Below are positions 194 to 20,868 of a stretch of 64,000 nucleotides of DNA, piece by piece. Numbering within the stretch: the first letter of the stretch is position 1; each line of letters opens with the position of its first letter. Origin of the DNA: a bacterium (GTDB lineage: Bacteria > SAR324 > NAC60-12). The stretch is taken from NCBI GenBank assembly GCA_965205865.1, contig CBDBHR010000028.1, positions 96,001-160,000 on the forward strand, in the 5' to 3' direction. The translations under genes and the position numbers were made by a program. Below the pieces are notes generated by a model. The model saw only the letters and a list, made by a program, of their open reading frames with translations. It searched no databases and had not been told where the DNA came from.

Positions 194-848
194 GTAACTA
201 TTCAGGTCTCTGAAAAACCCGTTTAGTTACAATATCGTTTAAAAAGATTCCCGGGGAAGATCAATCGTTTTACGTCCTCCCACGATATTGTTCCATCGAT
301 CGGGAACCCTCTCCTTCACTAAAACAACTCAGTGAAGGCATGATTGTAGCAAACAAAAACGCAATGTCAAGCCCCTGATACAAAATAAATGCGGGATTCG
401 CAAAAAAAAAATCAATAAATCTGCTCAAATCCGGGGACAGTCAGAAGCCGTTCAGTTCAATAACAAAGATTCCCGGCAAGGATCCATCTTTTTCACATCC
501 TCCCAGGGTACTGTTCAATCGATCGAGCGGGAACCCTCCCAAGATTTTGTTCAATCGATCGAGCGGGAACCCTCAACAAAGAGGGGCATGTGAAGCCTGT
601 CCCGGACTTGATCCGGGGGATGCAAAGCCCGAGTGAGCAACTCGAGGATGGATTTCCCTTGTTTTCCGGTAGTGGAAATGGGTTCGGATACAAAAAGCCT
701 GCGTTCCTTCAGCAGTTCGGAAGCCGCCTGAGATTTTTTGTTTCAGTTTAACCATGCGCACATCTCGCTCGGCTTGGTTGTTGTCAAAAGGAACTTGAAA
801 GTCATGCATGAATAACAAGCTTTTCTTTTCATAGAGGATCAAACGATC
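194..848 (-). mobile_element. IS66-family derived non-autonomous element, copy 1 (right end lost)
   Basis: Starts with terminal repeat GTAACTATTCAGGT at 194; 573-842 encodes IS66 transposase C-terminal motif [26 protein letters not shown]. Confidence 0.8.
343..370 (-). promoter_or_regulatory. sigma70 promoter driving the SBP gene (second copy 5084-5111)
   Basis: Minus strand TTGACA-16 bp-TACAAT with extended TG motif (TGCTACAAT). Confidence 0.75.
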
Positions 849-4934: not shown

Positions 4935-5702
4935 GTAACTATTCAGGTCTCTGAAAAACCCGTTTAGTTACAATATCGTTTAAAAAGATTCCCGGGGAAG
5001 ATCAATCGTTTTACGTCCTCCCACGATATTGTTCCATCGATCGGGAACCCTCTCCTTCACTAAAACAACTCAGTGAAGGCATGATTGTAGCAAACAAAAA
5101 CGCAATGTCAAGCCCCTGATACAAAATAAATGCGGGATTCGCAAAAAAAAAATCAATAAATCTGCTCAAATCCGGGGACAGTCAGAAACCGTTCAGTTCA
5201 ATAACAAAGATTCCCGGCAAGGATCCATCACTTCACTTCCTCCCGCACCTATTTTGAATCGATCGATCGGGAACCCTCAACAAAGAGGAGCATGTGAAGC
5301 CTGTCACGGACTTGATCCGGGGGATGCAAAGCCCGAGTGAGCAACTCGAGCATGGATTTCCCCTGTTTTCTGCTAGTGAAAATGGGCTCGGGTACAAAAA
5401 GCCTGCGTTCCTTCAGCAGTTCGCAAGCCGCCTGAGATTTTCTGTTTCAATTTGACCATGCGGATATCTCTCTCGGCTTGGTTGTTGTCAAAAAGAACTT
5501 GAAAGTCATGCATGAACAACAAGCTTTCATTTTCATAGAAGATCAAACGATCGAGTAAATTTTGAGCTTTCGTCTGTTTGGGGCGTCCTCGTTTCTTTTT
5601 TTTGAAGACTTGCAGGATAGTGCTCGAGTGCTTTTTGACTGATGTCGTGGTAACGTTGCCGGAAGCGATCGAAGAGGTCTCTAAAGAAACCTGAATAGTT
5701 AC
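4935..5702 (-). mobile_element. Internally deleted IS66-family element (MITE-like, 768 bp) with both terminal inverted repeats
   Basis: GTAACTATTCAGGT at 4935 and ACCTGAATAGTTAC ending 5702 (14-bp perfect IR); residual transposase C-terminus [18 protein letters not shown]...[21 protein letters not shown]; no exact 8-bp target duplication. Confidence 0.85.
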
Positions 5703-8197: not shown

Positions 8198-8253
8198 ACG
8201 GTCTTTCCTCGGTTTCTCATGACGAGCACACATGCGATAATTCAAGAAAAAAG

Positions 8254-8378
8254 TGCCAACCAGGCGGTTCACTTGACGCCCACCCCTGCGCTTTTCACGA
8301 AGGTTTGTGACAGATTGTCAGTTCATCTCTATTCCAATGGTCATTACCGGGTGGGCGCAAGTGACCTTGACGTTCTGC
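8254..8378 (+). other. Integron attC site 1
   Basis: R'' TGCCAAC ... R' GTTCTGC; arms GGTTCACTTGACGCCCACCC / GGGTGGGCGCAAGTGACC pair with two extrahelical bases. Confidence 0.85.
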
Positions 8379-8404
8379 CTCAAGAATAGACTCTCCTCAA
8401 AGTT

Positions 8405-8450
8405 TTGCATTTTTACAATTAATGACCTAAAATAGGTTCTATATTTAGAG
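8405..8450 (+). promoter_or_regulatory. TA operon promoter and operator
   Basis: TTGCAT-17 bp-TAAAAT overlapped by palindrome GACCTA-AAA-TAGGTT. Confidence 0.6.
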
Positions 8451-8476
8451 CTTATTTTTATTAAAAGGAGTGAATT

Positions 8477-8728
8477 ATGGATCTTATTCTTGCAAAATAT
8501 TCTGCCAGTATTTCAGAACTCAAAAAAAATCCCTCTGCATTACTTCAGCAAGCCGATGGCAGCCCTATCACCATTTTAAATCACAACAAACCAACAGCTT
8601 ATCTAGTCCCAGCAGAGACATATGAAGCGCTTTTGGAGAAACTAGAAGATTACGAATTGGGAGAGTTGGTGAAACAACGCCAACATGAAAAGGGAAAAGC
8701 TATCGAGGTTTCACTAGATGAGTTATAA
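8477..8728 (+). CDS. Phd/YefM-family antitoxin (StbD-like)
   Basis: SASISELKKNP...ILNHNKPTAYLVP; overlaps the downstream toxin. Confidence 0.9.
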   Translation: MDLILAKYSASISELKKNPSALLQQADGSPITILNHNKPTAYLVPAETYEALLEKLEDYELGELVKQRQHEKGKAIEVSLDEL

Positions 8729-9008
8729 ATTAAAGTTTTTGCCGACGGCATTGAAGGAGTGGAAGAAATTAGATACTTCTATTCAATCACAGTTGAAGAA
8801 AAAACTGGCGGAACGTTTAGAGAATCCACATATACCAGCTAGTAAGCTTTCAAGTTTTGCGAATCACTATAAAATCAAGCTCCGTACAAGTGGTTATCGG
8901 TTGGTGTACGAGGTTATTGATGATGAATTAGTCGTGATGGTGATTGTAATTGGAAAACGTGAAAGAGAAAGAGTCTATGAAATTGCAAAAGATCGATCAA
9001 AGGCATAA
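8718..9008 (+). CDS. relE: RelE/StbE-family toxin
   Basis: YKLKFLPTALKEWKKLD...YKIKLRTSGYRLVYEV; stop codon lies inside R'' of attC2. Confidence 0.92.
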   Translation: MSYKLKFLPTALKEWKKLDTSIQSQLKKKLAERLENPHIPASKLSSFANHYKIKLRTSGYRLVYEVIDDELVVMVIVIGKRERERVYEIAKDRSKA

Positions 9009-9087
9009 CAAATCAGTCCAGTGTATTTCGGGGGCGCTAGTCGTACCTCCTTCTGCCCCACTCAAATACTGAATTTTCACGTTGGAC
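9003..9087 (+). other. Integron attC site 2
   Basis: R'' GCATAAC ... R' GTTGGAC; imperfect arms CAGTGTATTT..GGGG / CCCC..AAATACTG; R'' GGCATAAC complements the GTTCTGCC that opens this cassette at 7 of 8 positions. Confidence 0.75.
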
Positions 9088-9132
9088 TCCAAAAAGTTTT
9101 CTCTCACATATATTTTCTAAAACATTTTATCG

Positions 9133-9267
9133 TTGAAAACTAATTCTACTTATTGTACGATATTACCGTACTTTTAAATCAAATTAGTTTCACATCCCTT
9201 TATTGGAGGATGAGCCATTATGCGAGAGGTGACAGTAAATCAATTTAGATCTACCCTTAAATCTTGA
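9133..9267 (+). pseudogene. Promoter and 5' stub of a second YefM-like antitoxin cassette
   Basis: TTGAAA-17-TACGAT with GTACG..CGTAC operator-like palindrome, GGAGG RBS, ATG at 9220: MREVTVNQFRSTLKS*, cut by the dppC fragment. Confidence 0.65.
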
Positions 9268-9681
9268 GCATCCCGCCCCAGCTGGGAAACTCGACGGGCA
9301 GACCGAATCCCAGGAAGCTCAGCCATAATCACCCTCCCGATGTTGATCGAGAAGACGATGATGATCGGGGCCATGATATTCGGCAGGACATGGCGGATCA
9401 GGATTTGGCTTGTCGAGGTGCCCACGGCCCGGGCGGCCAGAAAATAATCATTCTCTTTGATGCCGATCACCACGCCTCGCATGATTCGGGAACCGCCGAT
9501 GCCGCCGGCGACCCCCAGGACGACGATGATCTGGAGGAGACCCTGTCCCACGATGGACATGATGGTTAACAAGAGCAGCAGCCCCGGAAAGGCCATCCAG
9601 GCATCGACAAAGCACTGCATGGCCAGGTCCACTTTCCTCCCCAGAAATCCGGAAATGCCGCCGATCAGGGTACTGATCACA
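9264..9681 (-). pseudogene. Internal fragment of another DppC-like permease
   Basis: FVDAWMAFPGLLLLLTIMSIVGQG..IKENDYFLAA, closely matching 6050-6465; small deletion/frameshift near 9320. Confidence 0.85.
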
Positions 9682-9739
9682 ACCCTTTCTTTTTTTTGCC
9701 CCCTTTTTTTCGAGCGTTTCCGTTCCGTTTTCATGCCTT

Positions 9740-10071
9740 GACATGGAAATCATGGCCTAGTTATCCCTCTGGTAGGATAGGAGAGGATGACCTCGTAGGT
9801 AAACTTATCGGTTGCAATTTGCCGACAATGGGGTTACCCTGACCGATGATAAAAGGCAGTGTGATGCCTGAAATGGCAGTGTGACTCTCTCTTGTCGCTC
9901 ATACACCAAGATGATGAAAGCGAGAGGACAGAGAAAAACGTTCTCATATGTCGTCAGGCTAAGTGATCAGTGCTGTCATCCGGGTGGAATTTGCTTGAGC
10001 CTCGTGCTTGGAAAGGTGCATGCGAGGATCTGAGAGATCTGGGACTTGGCAACAAGTCCTGGCTACCCGAC
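9740..10071 (+). ncRNA. Group II intron remnant (ORF-less, 5'-truncated); domains V-VI recognisable
   Basis: 34-nt domain V GAGCCTCGTGCTTGGAAAGGTGCATGCGAGGATC (9997-10030, AGC triad, GAAA loop); domain VI hairpin GGGACTT-GGCAAC-AAGTCCT; 3' end CTACCCGAC; left boundary uncertain. Confidence 0.75.
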
Positions 10072-10099
10072 AGGAATTCACAATCATCAGGAGAAAATT

Positions 10100-10312
10100 A
10101 TGAGTAGCAAAGAATTATTAAAAGAAGCCTTGCGTCTAAGGCCCCAAGAAAGATTCGCAATCATTGAGGGGTTGCTAAAAAGCTTGGACGAGCCAGACAA
10201 GGACATTGATGAAATTTGGGCGATTGAAGCCGAAAAGAGATTAAATGCTTATCGATCTGGAGGATTGAAAGGCATTGCCATGGAAGAAATATTTGGGAAC
10301 ACAAAAAAATGA
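10100..10312 (+). CDS. Putative addiction module antitoxin component
   Basis: ELLKEALRLRPQERFAIIEGLLKSLD..DIDEIWAIEAEKRLNAY; AGGAG RBS; overlaps the toxin start. Confidence 0.85.
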   Translation: MSSKELLKEALRLRPQERFAIIEGLLKSLDEPDKDIDEIWAIEAEKRLNAYRSGGLKGIAMEEIFGNTKK

Positions 10313-10605
10313 AAATTTTGTTTACTGAATTGGCGAGAGCAGAGTTGATTGACGCGATTGCCTATTATGAAATGGAAGTTCCAGGATTAGGAGAGACATT
10401 CAAGGACGAAGTTGCTTCTGCGACAATGCGCATTAGTCACTTTCCTCAAGCTTGGTCCATCGAACGAGGCGACGTTCGCAAATGTATTATGCATAAATTC
10501 CCCTATAAGGTTTTGTATTCCATTGAAGAAGATCACATTCTGATTATTGCGATTGCGCACCAGCATAGAAAACCCGACTACTGGATCGATGACAAACCTT
10601 CCTAA
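10309..10605 (+). CDS. ParE/RelE-family toxin
   Basis: ARAELIDAIAYYE..GLGETF..KFPYKVLYSI..IIAIAHQHRKPDYW; stop inside R'' of attC3. Confidence 0.9.
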   Translation: MKILFTELARAELIDAIAYYEMEVPGLGETFKDEVASATMRISHFPQAWSIERGDVRKCIMHKFPYKVLYSIEEDHILIIAIAHQHRKPDYWIDDKPS

Positions 10606-10668
10606 CCAGGCATTTGACCTGATCGCTTTCCGCTATGCTCTAAGCGACAGGTCAACTTTACGTTGGGC
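10600..10668 (+). other. Integron attC site 3
   Basis: R'' TCCTAAC ... R' GTTGGGC; arms TTGACCTGATCGCTT / AAGCGACAGGTCAA with an extrahelical base. Confidence 0.88.
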
Positions 10669-10767
10669 TCTGCATATCAAACAACATCACAAACATGGAG
10701 TATCTATGTCAAATGATGATTTAGAAGAAGATCGGGAAACTCGTATTGAGAACTTAAAACGTAAAAT

Positions 10768-10794
10768 GAAAAAAGGGGACAGTCCCCTTTTTTC
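10768..10794. repeat. Perfect 27-bp palindrome
   Basis: GAAAAAAGGGGAC-A-GTCCCCTTTTTTC; truncates the ORF that follows attC3 and could act as a bidirectional terminator. Confidence 0.8.
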
Positions 10795-10862
10795 GGGTGT
10801 GGACGCGCCCACTCGGTCACGCCCGATCCCAGCCTGACCATTGTCGTCCTTACCCTCTGAAG

Positions 10863-12484: not shown

Positions 12485-13398
12485 AGACCCGCCATAGCGC
12501 CCTGCAGCACCCCGTAACCGGGGGTCGAGCAAATCCCTGAGGGCGTCGCCGAAAATGTTGAGGCCTTAGACGACAATCATCAGAGCAAGACCAGGCCAGA
12601 TGGACATCAAAGGAGCGAGGAACATGTAAGAGCGTCCGGAGCCACTGAGCATCCCTCCACAGGTAGGCTCCGGGGGGAGATGCCCAAACCCAGGAAGCTG
12701 AGGGCGGCTTCCCCTAAAATCATATTCGGCACAGTTGCCGAAAACAGGATGATGATGGTAGGCATAATATTGGGCAGGATATGTCGGGTTATGATATTCG
12801 TAGTCGGACTGCCAATCGCCACCGCCGCTTCTACATACATATTCTCTCGAATGGCGATAACGGCGCTTCTCATGATCCTTGAAACGCTGATACCGGAGAC
12901 CAACCCCATCGCGATAATCAGCTGCCACATCCCTGGCCCCACGATAGAGACAGCAAATAAGAAAATGATAAACGGGGGAAAGCAAATCCAGCCATCCACA
13001 AACCGCTGCGCCACCATATCGAACTTACCGCCGAAAAACCCGGACGGGACCCCGATCAATAAGGCAATCAGTATCGCCAGAGTAGTCGCCCCGAGACCGA
13101 CAAACATCGAGTTACGAGCCCCAAAGACAATACGGCTATAAATGTCCCGCCCCAGGTTATCCGCCCCGAGGAAATACTTGGTTGAGGGGGGATGCAGGTA
13201 ATCTCTGGGGTGAATGTCGTTCACTCCGTAAGGCGCCAGCCAATCGGTAAAAATACCAGTAAAAAGAAAGAGCAGCAGGATAATCCCCCCAATAAGACCC
13301 AGGGGTTGCTCCTTGACCAGCCTGGTCAAGAACACCACCGGCCTGGCACGTCGCCTGGGCTCCCTGATTTCGGGTGGGATTTCCAGGGTATCATTCAA
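12485..13398 (-). pseudogene. DppC-like permease with a frameshift and a nonsense codon
   Basis: LGADNLGRDIYSRI..SFLGLG; frameshift at the C-run near 12675; TAA at 12566; GDALRDLLDPRLRG continues downstream. Confidence 0.85.
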
Positions 13399-19833: not shown

Positions 19834-20868
19834 AACAAGGAGGAGCATGTGAAGCTTGTCCCGGACTTGATCCGGGGGATGCAAAGCCTGAGTGAGCAAC
19901 TCGAGCATGGATTTCCCCTGTTTTCTGCTAGTGGAAATGGGTTCGGATACAAAAAGCCTGCGTTCCTTCAGCAGTTCGCAAGCCGCCTGAGATTTTCTGT
20001 TTCAATTTGACCATGCGGATATCTCTCTCGGCTTGGTTGTTGTCAAAAGGAACTTGAAAGTCATGCATGAATAACAAGCTTTCCTTTTCATAGAGGATCA
20101 AACGATCGAGTAAATTTTTTGCTTTCGTCTGTTTGGGGCGTCCTCGTTTCTTTTTTTGAGGTTTTGCAGGATAGAGATCGAGTGCTTCTTGGCTGATGTC
20201 GTGGTAGCACTGCCGGAAGCGATCGAGTTGGCTTCGACATCCATTCCCGCTTTGCCGCGTTTGTCATGGATAAAATAAAAAGTCATCTGCTCCGTGGAGG
20301 CCGAGTGAAGCCAGCGACGTTGTTTGTTTTCAAAGAGGGAGATCAAACACCTGACGTTTAAGCGTGGACTCGACCGTCACCTTGGATAAGTCTTTTCCAC
20401 AGGCTTCACAGGTGCTGGCAATTCCACATGATCTGGCGATTCACTGAAAGCCAAATGATGGCCTTGATGACCGGCTTGAGCTCCCACGATATTGTTTAAT
20501 CTATCGTGTGGAAACCCTCCGCGAGAGCGACCCCTGTTTTTACCTGAACTTTTGCTCTTGCGACTTACATCGGTGGATGGTGGCTTACTCGATTTTTGGC
20601 TGTTGAGAGCCAGCCGATCTCGTAGTTGCTTATTTTCTGTCTCGAGAGCTTCAATACGTTTGAGGAGTTCTAAGCGCTCTTGCTTCCATTGCTCTCGTTC
20701 TTTTTCAAAGAGTTGACATGCCTCTTGAAGAGCCTCGAGGTGGGGAGTCGATGAAATGGAATCAATATATTTTTGAATTTTCGAGAGCATAAAATCCTTT
20801 CTGGATTTTATGCTATGCAAAATCCGTGCTTAAATCGATGGGCTCTCTGAAGATACCTGAATAGTTAC
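19834..20868 (-). mobile_element. IS66-family remnant, longest copy
   Basis: Left end CTGAATAGTTAC ending 20868; coiled coil plus NSQKSSKPPSTD..GAQAGHQGH, WLHSAST, HDKRG, and the same 3' segment as 575-848 and 5279-5670. Confidence 0.88.

What the first reader, a model, noticed from the sequence alone, without database searches (positions are those of the whole stretch)
9740..10076. Non-IIC group II intron remnant inserted exactly at an integron cassette core site, on the top strand
Seen: the intron 3' end (..CTACCCGAC, 10071) is followed immediately by AGGAA. The cassette's own R'' is TTCCTAAC, whose complement is GTT-AGGAA, so the 3' exon starts right after the GTT of the expected core site. 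Domain V is 34 nt with an AGC triad and the intron is co-oriented with the cassette. Known: described attC-targeting introns are class IIC (shorter DV, CGC triad) and insert in the opposite orientation at the inverse core. Inference: a different intron class targeting attC/attI core sites, possibly an undescribed link between retroelements and cassette arrays.
Basis: partly seen in the sequence, partly recalled or inferred. Interest (0 to 1): 0.75.

Follow-up and report, generated by a model that had tools for sequence, protein, structure and literature searches.

The report
Dead intron tail at cassette boundary
This is the decayed last 77 bases of a self-splicing mobile intron, sitting at the first base of a toxin-antitoxin gene cassette in a worn-out integron; it is an inactive example of a rarely described habit, in which introns insert in the same direction as the genes into integron recombination sites.

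Summary
Partly confirmed. Bases 9995-10071 (+) are a real but sub-threshold group II intron 3' end (domains V and VI; Rfam 33.2 bits against a cut-off of 40, E 1e-4). Domain V has 34 nt and an AGC triad, and the element points the same way as the cassettes.

The claimed 5' part (9740-9930) is not intron. It is the leader of a broken, GC-rich ABC-importer operon on the other strand.

The surroundings are a decayed integron array with no integrase in this genome. Its homologue in the sister genome G001 lies 12 kb from an integrase fragment.

In G001, a related non-IIC intron (family F3) sits, co-oriented, one base after the GTT of the neighbouring attC. Metagenomic relatives of F3 end their 5' exons in CGTTA (15 of 17 readable), pair it with an intron loop UAACG, and often follow attC hairpins.

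I could not show that the window's remnant belongs to that lineage, and its own 5' exon is lost.

The kind is already in print (Sonbol and Siam 2021), and this scan has noted sense-strand attC-homing introns before on other DNA. It is a new, dead member of a known kind.

The parts
9995..10071 (+). Group II intron 3' remnant. Domain V is 9997-10030 (34 nt, AGC triad). Domain VI is about 10033-10071 (bulged A at 10065, ends GAC).
   Evidence: Rfam RF00029 at 33.2 bits, E 9.7e-5, full model. Own-genome scan E 1.8e-4. Sequence read. Aligned to metagenomic relatives.
9931..9994 (.). 64 unassigned bases between the ABC-leader homology and domain V. They may be a scrap of intron domain IV.
   Evidence: No match in the own genome, in 88 genomes of the phylum or in 80 metagenomic intron loci.
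10072..10668 (+). Toxin-antitoxin cassette: antitoxin 10100-10312 (Unstab_antitox), ParE-type toxin 10309-10605, and the attC-like site 10599-10668. Its first five bases, AGGAA, complement its own R''.
   Evidence: Pfam. Sequence. DNA fold z -2.9 on the top strand and -3.0 on the bottom strand.
10599..10668 (+). attC-like site c: R'' TTCCTAAC, an imperfect 13-bp palindrome with one extra base on the R'' arm, and R' GTTGGGC. The ParE stop codon lies inside R''.
   Evidence: Read by eye; no attC covariance model was available.
9700..9930 (-). Leader or upstream region of a GC-rich ABC-importer operon. It is not intron.
   Evidence: Homologous to C26:283020-283163 (88%) and C23:116889-117069 (71%). 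In C23 it lies upstream of an SBP_bac_5 gene.
9243..9734 (-). Truncated DppC/OppC-type permease fragment fused to the leader's short ORF.
   Evidence: Pfam BPD_transp_1 matches only profile positions 2-124 of 184. Paralogues lie at 1384-1631 and 12824-13071.
9082..9254 (+). Start of a third cassette, carrying the first 15 codons of a Phd-like antitoxin (ATG at 9220). It is cut off by the ABC fragment.
   Evidence: Sequence. Repeat family D13 starts at 9254. A contig of run X1 bridges this junction.
8373..9087 (+). Phd/ParE cassette (8477-8728 and 8718-9008) with attC-like site b at 9002-9087 (R'' GGCATAAC, R' GTTGGAC). The cassette start TTCTGCC fits its own R''.
   Evidence: Pfam. Sequences. 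The fold is weak, z -1.15.
8253..8379 (+). attC-like site a (R'' GTGCCAAC, 18-bp imperfect arms, R' GTTCTGCC). Its homologue in G001 carries an F3 intron one base after the GTT.
   Evidence: (z -3.0).

Best explanation
Bases 9995-10071 are the dead 3' end (domains V and VI) of a group II intron of the IIB-like type. Domain V is 34 nt with an AGC triad, and its basal sequence GAGCCYCGUG...CAUGCGRGGAUCUG is shared with a large environmental group whose domain V ends in a 5-nt loop, as reported for classes E and F. Inferred history: the intron reverse-spliced into the top (coding) strand at the R' core of an attC site in a chromosomal integron, at or within one base of GTT|AGGAA. Its 3' splice site therefore abuts the first bases of the antitoxin/ParE cassette. 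A later rearrangement brought in a fragment of a GC-rich ABC-importer operon. That event removed domains I-IV, the reverse-transcriptase gene, the upstream attC and most of the preceding Phd cassette. What remains does nothing: it cannot splice or move, and it is drifting. Shown: the DV/DVI identity, orientation, junction sequence, array context and reality of the assembly. Inferred: the original insertion site and the order of events.
For: DV/DVI match at E 1e-4 over the full model. The genome holds 55 other DV/DVI hits at E<=1, 10 of them above the cut-off, falling into several sequence groups, so intron debris is expected here. The 3' end ...GAC| agrees with the ends of 47 aligned relatives...G(A/T)(C/T)|. 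AGGAA at 10072-10076 complements the cassette's own R'', and the neighbouring cassette shows the same rule at 8 of 9 bases. Integron integrases above the cut-off occur in 6 of 41 related genomes. G001 has an integrase fragment (122 bits, one TAG stop) 12 kb from the homologue of attC-a, pointing away from the cassettes as in a canonical integron. In G001, an ORF-less F3 intron follows attC-a at ...GCGTTA|GCGCG in the cassette orientation. F3's domain V differs from the remnant's basal helix only by one compensated pair. Of 18 metagenomic 5' junctions of the F3-type lineages, 17 end in GTTA; 15 of the 17 with at least 5 readable bases end in CGTTA. By my own reading, 10 of the 16 with at least 60 nt of 5' exon follow an attC-like hairpin. 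The intron loop UAACG pairs with CGTTA, with compensatory variants CAACG/CGTTG (two copies in G008) and UAAGU/ACUUA (L079). Contigs from three studies carry the same junctions.
Against: The Rfam score is below the gathering threshold (33.2 against 40). No attC, no GTT and no intron 5' part lie upstream, so the insertion site rests on a 5-base match (about 1 in 1000 at a fixed position). The lineage model R1 gives the remnant 34.7 bits, whereas F3 copies score 89-94 and unrelated families score 31-50, so membership in the attC-homing lineage is not shown. The remnant's domain VI geometry (6 nt from the bulged A to the end) is nearest to lineage C, whose four visible 5' exons are neither CGTTA nor attC-like. 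F3-type introns insert one base after the GTT, whereas the register here implies insertion directly after it. No close relative of the remnant was found in the own genome, in 88 genomes of the phylum, or by two exact-pattern scans. No integrase is present in this 92%-complete genome (best hit 43 bits against a cut-off of 265). The attC sites were called by eye, and site b folds weakly (z -1.15).
Confidence: 0.6

Rival explanations
1. It is a real intron remnant, but its contact with the cassette start is accidental. The intron had an ordinary homing site, or was brought next to the cassette by the same rearrangements that scrambled this region, and the 5-base match to R'' is chance.
For: The region is a patchwork of IS66, IstB and PD-(D/E)XK transposase fragments and three ABC-permease paralogues. 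The remnant's nearest domain VI relatives (lineage C) do not sit at attC sites. Model R1 does not place it in the attC-homing lineage. Only five bases support the site.
Against: The match falls exactly at the 3' splice junction and in register with the R'' box of the same cassette. A rearrangement would have had to break exactly at the intron's last base. Related introns demonstrably use this kind of site in the sister genome's copy of this array.
Confidence: 0.25
2. It is a chance look-alike of domains V and VI, not an intron remnant at all.
For: The score is below Rfam's gathering threshold. There are three non-pairs. The fold z-score is only -1.88. No relatives were found by sequence.
Against: E is 1.8e-4 for the whole genome, with a full-length model match. 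26 basal domain V positions are identical to metagenomic intron L093. The end has correct AY geometry and a bulged A.
Confidence: 0.05
3. It is a degenerate class C (IIC-attC) intron, the known integron-homing kind.
For: This genome holds class C introns with a short CGC-type domain V, which insert after hairpins.
Against: The remnant's domain V has 34 nt and an AGC triad, and the element is co-oriented with the cassettes. IIC-attC introns lie in the bottom strand, opposite to the cassette genes (PMC3001079, passages read).
Confidence: 0.01
4. The remnant has been kept because it does something for the cassette, such as acting as a promoter, an RNA-processing site or a stabilising 5' structure for the toxin-antitoxin transcript.
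For: It persists in diverged strains from several studies, and a metatranscriptomic contig covers 9988-10608 (DNA carry-over is not excluded). Promoters inside attC-associated introns are reported (PMC3001079; PMC7923331).
Against: No promoter-like site lies between 9735 and 10100. Strain differences hit paired positions of domain V, as expected for neutral decay.
Confidence: 0.05

Closest known systems
H.ha.F1 and H.ha.F2 of Halorhodospira halochloris, and UHB.I2 (Sonbol and Siam 2021, Mob DNA 12:8, PMC7923331)
   Same: They are non-IIC (IIB-type) introns with endonuclease-less proteins, lying in the same orientation as the cassettes directly after attC or attC-like hairpins. H.ha.F1 and F2 are 5'-truncated, keeping DV, DVI and part of the intron-encoded protein ORF. 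They sit in an integrase-less array rich in toxin-antitoxin cassettes.
   Different: The exact insertion base and the sequences are in supplements I could not open, so identity of lineage or site is untested. Here the upstream attC is deleted as well, and no protein fragment survives, so no protein class can be assigned.
Family F3 of this genus and its metagenomic relatives (lineages A and B of this report)
   Same: The basal helix and linker of domain V are the same (GAGCCYCGUG...CAUGCGRGGAUCUG). The 3' end is AY. The orientation matches the cassettes. One copy lies in the homologous array of G001.
   Different: F3-type introns insert after GTTN (mostly CGTTA|T) and have 7 nt after the branch A. 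The remnant implies GTT|A and has 6 nt. The lineage model does not single it out (34.7 bits).
Group IIC-attC introns (S.ma.I2 and relatives; PMC3001079, PMC4424553)
   Same: They are retroelements that use integron attC sites, relying on a short exon pairing plus a DNA hairpin.
   Different: They are class C, insert into the bottom strand and lie antisense to the cassettes. The remnant differs in domain V (the CGC triad of class IIC is stated in PMC7923331, read; the short domain V is seen in this genome's own class-C-like family F5) and in strand.
Group IIE and IIF ribozymes (Nagy et al. 2013, PMC3753933)
   Same: Those classes are reported to have a 5-nt terminal loop in domain V and to rely on EBS1-IBS1 alone. 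The relatives found here have such loops.
   Different: No attC association is reported in the passages I read. The class of the remnant and of F3 was not established by phylogeny here.

Membership tests
Group II intron (Rfam RF00029, domains V-VI) | Covariance-model score at or above the gathering threshold (40 bits) | tested here: not met
   33.2 bits over the full model; E 9.7e-5 locally and 1.8e-4 genome-wide. Significant but sub-threshold.
Group II intron (Rfam RF00029, domains V-VI) | A 34-nt domain V with an AGC triad and a two-base bulge, and a domain VI with a bulged A and an AY end | tested here: met
   Read. There are three non-pairs.
Group II intron (Rfam RF00029, domains V-VI) | [quoted passage not shown] | tested here: not met
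   9700-9930 is ABC-operon leader. No RT ORF was found. It is a remnant only.
Group IIC-attC introns | Class C domain V (shorter, CGC triad) | tested here: not met
   34 nt with AGC. Compare the genome's own class C family.
Group IIC-attC introns | Insertion in the attC bottom strand, antisense to the cassette genes | tested here: not met
   The remnant is on the same strand as the antitoxin and ParE genes. The criterion comes from PMC3001079.
Sense-strand attC-homing IIB-like introns (F3 type; Sonbol and Siam type) | Co-oriented with the cassettes, with the 3' splice site at the first bases of a cassette | tested here: met
   AGGAA at 10072-10076 complements the cassette's own R'' at 10599-10606.
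Sense-strand attC-homing IIB-like introns (F3 type; Sonbol and Siam type) | The 5' exon is an attC ending in (C)GTTN, paired with the EBS1 loop UAACG | not testable with these tools
   The 5' exon and domain I are deleted in every copy seen.
Sense-strand attC-homing IIB-like introns (F3 type; Sonbol and Siam type) | DV/DVI fits the lineage's covariance model better than other intron families do | tested here: not met
   R1 gives the remnant 34.7 bits, F3 copies 88.7-93.7, and other families of this genome 31-49.5.
Integron cassette array (CALIN) | Two or more attC sites (R''...R' with imperfect inner repeats) flanking promoterless cassettes | tested here: inconclusive
   Three sites were read by eye. 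Fold z-scores are -3.0, -1.15 and -2.9. No attC model was available, and my crude detector was uninformative.
Integron cassette array (CALIN) | The cassette start is complementary to its own R'' box | tested here: met
   Met in 2 of 2 testable cassettes: 8 of 9 bases (start 8373 against R'' 9001-9009) and 5 of 5 visible bases (10072-10076 against 10599-10603).
Integron cassette array (CALIN) | An integron integrase nearby | tested here: not met
   The best hit in this genome is 43 bits against a cut-off of 265. G001 has a 122-bit fragment beside the homologous array. 6 of 41 relatives have intact integrases.

The most novel reading that the evidence does not exclude
The remnant and the F3 intron in the sister genome are traces of a large, barely described clade of IIB-like (class E/F-type) group II introns. 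This clade homes to the TOP strand of integron attC sites by pairing a 5-nt intron loop (UAACG) with the conserved core CGTTA of the R' box. That makes it a sense-strand mirror image of the class C attC introns. Because it splits the R' box three bases from the integrase crossover, it travels as the first element of the downstream cassette.
Probability: 0.4. Interest if true: 0.65.

Novelty: new member of a known kind. Interest (0 to 1): 0.4.

Why it matters
The remnant itself is inert and matters little. Its value is as a pointer. Integron arrays in uncultured marine and sponge bacteria are colonised by sense-strand, non-class-C introns that read the conserved attC core by base pairing. Standard reviews (PMC4424553) credit attC and hairpin targeting to class C only, and I found only one paper (PMC7923331) reporting the sense-strand kind, from three cases. 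Such introns would ride along with cassettes. They could block or alter integrase recombination at the split R' box. They could also supply promoters to cassettes in arrays that have lost their integrase. The short, programmable 5-nt recognition with observed compensatory changes can be tested directly in a mobility assay.

Tried and rejected
1. Searches for close relatives of 9931-10071 all failed: own genome by blastn with word size 7, 40 relatives, 88 genomes of the phylum, and exact domain V patterns in genome contigs and metagenome contigs.

2. A relaxed pattern in genome contigs gave 5 stretches, all chance matches in coding DNA.

3. My crude regex-and-fold attC detector over the genome returned 32 unconvincing sites and missed the window's own sites, so I dropped it.

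4. Aligning the 150 nt upstream of domain V across 11 representative intron 3' ends from this genome (including the remnant itself) showed nothing shared with the remnant.

5. The start of the cassette that owns attC-a (expected GTTGGCAC) was not found upstream.

6. No integrase was found in the 80 metagenomic loci (302 kb, mostly short contigs; one weak 41-bit tyrosine-recombinase hit). Those attC calls therefore rest on structure alone.

7. Comparison with solved reverse transcriptases did not assign F3's protein to a class (LtrA 148 bits, GsI-IIC 138, the 6me0 maturase/RT 136).

8. A plasmid search with F3 found only DV/DVI-level matches to unrelated plasmid introns, none in integrons.

9. 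The promoter scan found nothing between 9735 and 10100.

10. Lineage D turned out to begin at the ORF region in the two contigs I examined, so its 5' exons could not be read.

11. The RNA-library contig over 9988-10608 is not evidence of transcription, because DNA carry-over cannot be excluded.

Full report
**What is at the coordinates**

A whole-window Rfam scan at gathering thresholds finds nothing. A sensitive scan of 9600-10200 finds one credible match: Intron_gpII at 9995-10071 on the + strand. It covers all 77 model positions at 33.2 bits (gathering score 40), with E 9.7e-5. In a scan of the whole 4.74-Mb genome, the same hit has E 1.8e-4.

Read directly:
- Domain V is 9997-10030, 34 nt. 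It starts GAGCC (AGC triad), has an AT bulge and ends GGATC.
- After a short linker comes a 10-bp hairpin with a GCAA loop.
- The element ends GGCTACCCGAC at 10071, with a bulged A at 10065.

The element is damaged: two non-pairs in the distal helix of domain V and one in the basal helix of domain VI.

**What is not intron**

Bases 9735-9929 have two other copies in this genome: C26 at 88% over 145 nt, and C23 at 71% over 161 nt (alignment).
- In C23, the stretch lies about 500 nt upstream of a family-5 solute-binding-protein gene.
- In C26, it lies beside a permease fragment.
- In the window, it runs on the minus strand into a truncated DppC-type permease (9243-9734; Pfam profile positions 2-124 of 184). 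That permease has paralogues at 1384-1631 and 12824-13071.

None of the other 55 intron hits of the genome shares this stretch. The intron remnant is at most 9931-10071, and the 64 bases 9931-9994 match nothing I could find.

**The assembly is sound**

Contigs from public runs of three different studies carry the same arrangement:
- One covers 8900-9294 without a difference.
- One covers 9751-10800 with two differences.
- One covers 9584-10480 with one difference.

A diverged strain has the remnant with 10018 G>A, an insertion after 10015, 10044 A>G and 10071 C>T. These changes touch paired positions of domain V, as expected for neutral decay.

**The setting is a decayed integron array**

Pfam shows two complete toxin-antitoxin pairs on the + strand: Phd/ParE at 8477-9008, and Unstab_antitox/ParE at 10100-10605. 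The first 15 codons of a third Phd start at 9220. Around them lie IS66, IstB and PD-(D/E)XK transposase fragments and ABC modules.

Three attC-like sites can be read:
- Site a, 8253-8379: GTGCCAAC ... GTTCTGCC.
- Site b, 9002-9087: GGCATAAC ... GTTGGAC.
- Site c, 10599-10668: TTCCTAAC ... GTTGGGC.

Each has imperfect inner inverted repeats, with the extra bases on the R'' arm. Both ParE stop codons lie inside the R'' box. Fold z-scores are -3.0, -1.15 and -2.9, so site b is weak.

A cassette begins with the TT of the preceding GTT and should complement its own R'' (the integron model as I recall it). The cassette starting at 8373 does so at 8 of 9 bases.

This genome (92% complete) has no integron integrase: the best hit is 43 bits against a cut-off of 265. 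However, 6 of 41 related genomes have one above the cut-off. The same-genus genome G001 has a 122-bit fragment with an internal TAG stop. The 40 kb around that fragment is homologous in pieces to the window, including the PD-(D/E)XK gene and site a at 87-95% identity. The integrase fragment points away from the cassettes, as in a canonical integron.

I had no attC covariance model. The attC calls are my own reading.

**The junction**

R'' of site c is TTCCTAAC, so its cassette should begin TTAGGAA. The intron ends at 10071 and AGGAA follows at 10072-10076. The match is in register if the intron entered directly after GTT. That is five observed bases, about one chance in a thousand at a fixed position.

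The intron's last base is well placed. The 47 distinct DV-DVI sequences of lineages A, B and D that I aligned, taken from the 80 metagenomic loci, end ...G(A/T)(C/T) at the same distance from the basal helix.

The GTT, the attC that carried it and the whole 5' part of the intron are missing. In their place stands the ABC fragment, which also cuts the preceding Phd cassette at about 9254. The truncation is therefore not the 5' truncation left by incomplete reverse transcription, which would keep the 5' exon. It is a later deletion or replacement.

In G001, the homologue of site a is followed, after ...GTGACCTTTGCGTTA, by an ORF-less group II intron of family F3. This intron starts GCGCG and ends ...CCTACCGCGTC. 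It lies in the cassette orientation, and a new cassette follows it. With the intron removed, that cassette starts TTAGGCA, against GTTGGGCA expected from its own R'' (7 of 8).

Properties of F3:
- Domain V is 33 nt with an AGC triad.
- The full copy is 2.0 kb and encodes a 443-aa reverse transcriptase/maturase (TIGR04416, 348 bits). The protein matches the RT/maturase model over residues 40-404 and is too short to carry an endonuclease domain.
- About 580 nt precede the ORF. It is not class C by its RNA.
- Its domain V basal helix differs from the remnant's by one compensated pair.

Other copies in related genomes: three in G008 follow ...CGTTG| (two copies) or GGTTG|, and one in G010 follows ...GTTCGG|. 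One G008 copy and the G010 copy lie after textbook attC hairpins.

**The wider lineage**

All carry proper DV/DVI. In 47 distinct sequences, 98.4% of cells pair, and 13 of 27 pairs show changes on both sides; 0 of 500 shuffles reach this. Their domain V ends in a 5-nt loop, a trait reported for classes E and F (PMC3753933, passages read).

A profile of the 5' end found 18 intron starts at E<1e-10:
- 17 follow GTTA.
- 15 of the 17 with at least five readable bases follow CGTTA. The exceptions are ACTTA and TGTTA.

By my own reading, 10 of the 16 with at least 60 nt of 5' exon follow an attC-like hairpin (R'' xYTAAC ... R' GTTA). The other 6 lie inside genes or plain DNA.

Objective but blunt checks:
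- A forced AAC...GTT fold of -15 kcal/mol or better occurs in 6 of 16 junctions, against 36 of 400 random CGTTA sites of this genome (Fisher 0.003).
- Against other CGTTA sites in the same loci, the figures are 6 of 16 against 37 of 300.
- The 7-mer expected for the downstream cassette's own R'' is present in 12 of 47 downstream flanks, against 176 of 2961 control triplets (binomial 1.4e-5).
- The longer ORF downstream is on the intron's strand in 31 cases and on the opposite strand in 16 (p 0.02).

An intron loop...GGGUUU-UAACG-UAC..., is complementary to CGTTA. It changes to CAACG in the two G008 copies that follow CGTTG, and to UAAGU in the copy that follows ACTTA. Positions further upstream in the 5' exon are not conserved.

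This lineage therefore recognises a 5-nt core that coincides with the R' box, on the top strand. It often does so at attC sites, but not always.

**Does the window's remnant belong to that lineage?**

This is not shown.
- A covariance model of lineages A, B and D gives the remnant 34.7 bits. F3 copies score 89-94, and unrelated intron families of this genome score 31-50.
- The remnant's domain VI (GAGAG.../...CTACCCGAC, six bases after the bulged A) is closest to a sister lineage C (...CTACTCGAT).
- Lineage C's four visible 5' exons end TTATAT, TTAATAG and TTGG (twice). The three that are long enough to judge are not attC-like.
- F3-type introns enter one base after the GTT. The register here implies entry directly after it.

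The claim 'inserted at the core site' therefore rests on three things: the five-base match, the array context, and the precedent in the sister genome.

**Literature**

- Class C attC introns insert in the bottom strand, opposite to the cassette genes (PMC3001079; abstract and introduction passages).
- A 2015 review assigns attC and terminator targeting to class C alone (PMC4424553; passages).
- Sonbol and Siam 2021 (PMC7923331; abstract, sections 7 and 10 part 1, and passages) report three relevant items. A IIB1/CL1 intron lies co-oriented immediately after an attC. Two class E introns, 5'-truncated (only DV, DVI and part of the intron-encoded protein ORF remain), follow attC-like structures in an integrase-less array of H. 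halochloris. And the arrays are rich in toxin-antitoxin cassettes.

The junction sequences of Sonbol and Siam are in supplements that I could not open, so I cannot say whether the site or lineage is the same as here. My four library searches found no other description of sense-strand, non-class-C attC introns.

Earlier reports of this scan on other genomes describe the same phenomenon. I reached it independently here, but it is not new to the scan.

**Verdict**

This is a real but dead intron tail of the non-class-C kind. It most likely marks an old top-strand insertion at a cassette boundary of a decayed integron. The kind is already in print. It is a new, inactive member of a known kind. The wider CGTTA-homing lineage is the part worth following.

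Noticed in passing
whole genome G000: The 4.7-Mb genome holds 56 DV/DVI matches at E<=1, 10 of them above the Rfam cut-off, falling into several sequence groups. One group, with a 96-nt DV/DVI, has about 33 near-identical copies, many with the same 3' exon TTTGATTA.
   Followed up: partly
G000: C25:23741, C15:9016, C26:167763, C28:366699, C28:370642, C28:266663, C23:180919, C24:45926, C10:72245: A class C family (short CGC-type domain V) has nine 5' ends, all reading TTGT|GTGTGCCC. Several follow hairpins. One (C25) follows an attC-like R''...L''...L' structure in the sense orientation.
   Followed up: partly
window 243-570, 4984-5274 and 20480-20515: A 36-nt repeat (CCTCCCA...TCGATCG...GGAAC) occurs six times next to IS66 fragments, twice in tandem. 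Its nature is unknown.
   Followed up: no
window 9700-9930, C26:283020-283163 and C23:116889-117069: A conserved 150-230-nt leader lies upstream of the GC-rich ABC-importer operons, ending in a short lysine-rich ORF (MKTE(R/W)K...). No Rfam family matches it. It may be a regulatory RNA or leader peptide.
   Followed up: no
L059 and L108 (metagenome loci): Lineage D elements share homology only from the start of the reverse-transcriptase ORF to the 3' end (about 1960 nt) and have different DNA upstream. They appear to be copies that lack domains I-III.
   Followed up: partly
L136 3' exon and L102: Some metagenomic contigs carry two introns of this group in tandem or close together. In L136 the 3' exon begins like another intron's 5' end (GTGCGCCAGGCG).
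   Followed up: no
G000:C30:920720-920975: A CRISPR-like array with the repeat GTAGCACTCAACCTCCGGGTTGGGTGAGGATTGAAAC was picked up by the crude attC detector.
   Followed up: no
plasmid collection: The DV/DVI of F3 is 82-84% identical to that of a group II intron (ltrA) present on Klebsiella plasmids; 3,517 of the 3,977 matching plasmid records are Klebsiella. In the one locus I opened, the intron lies between IS elements and not in an integron.
   Followed up: partly
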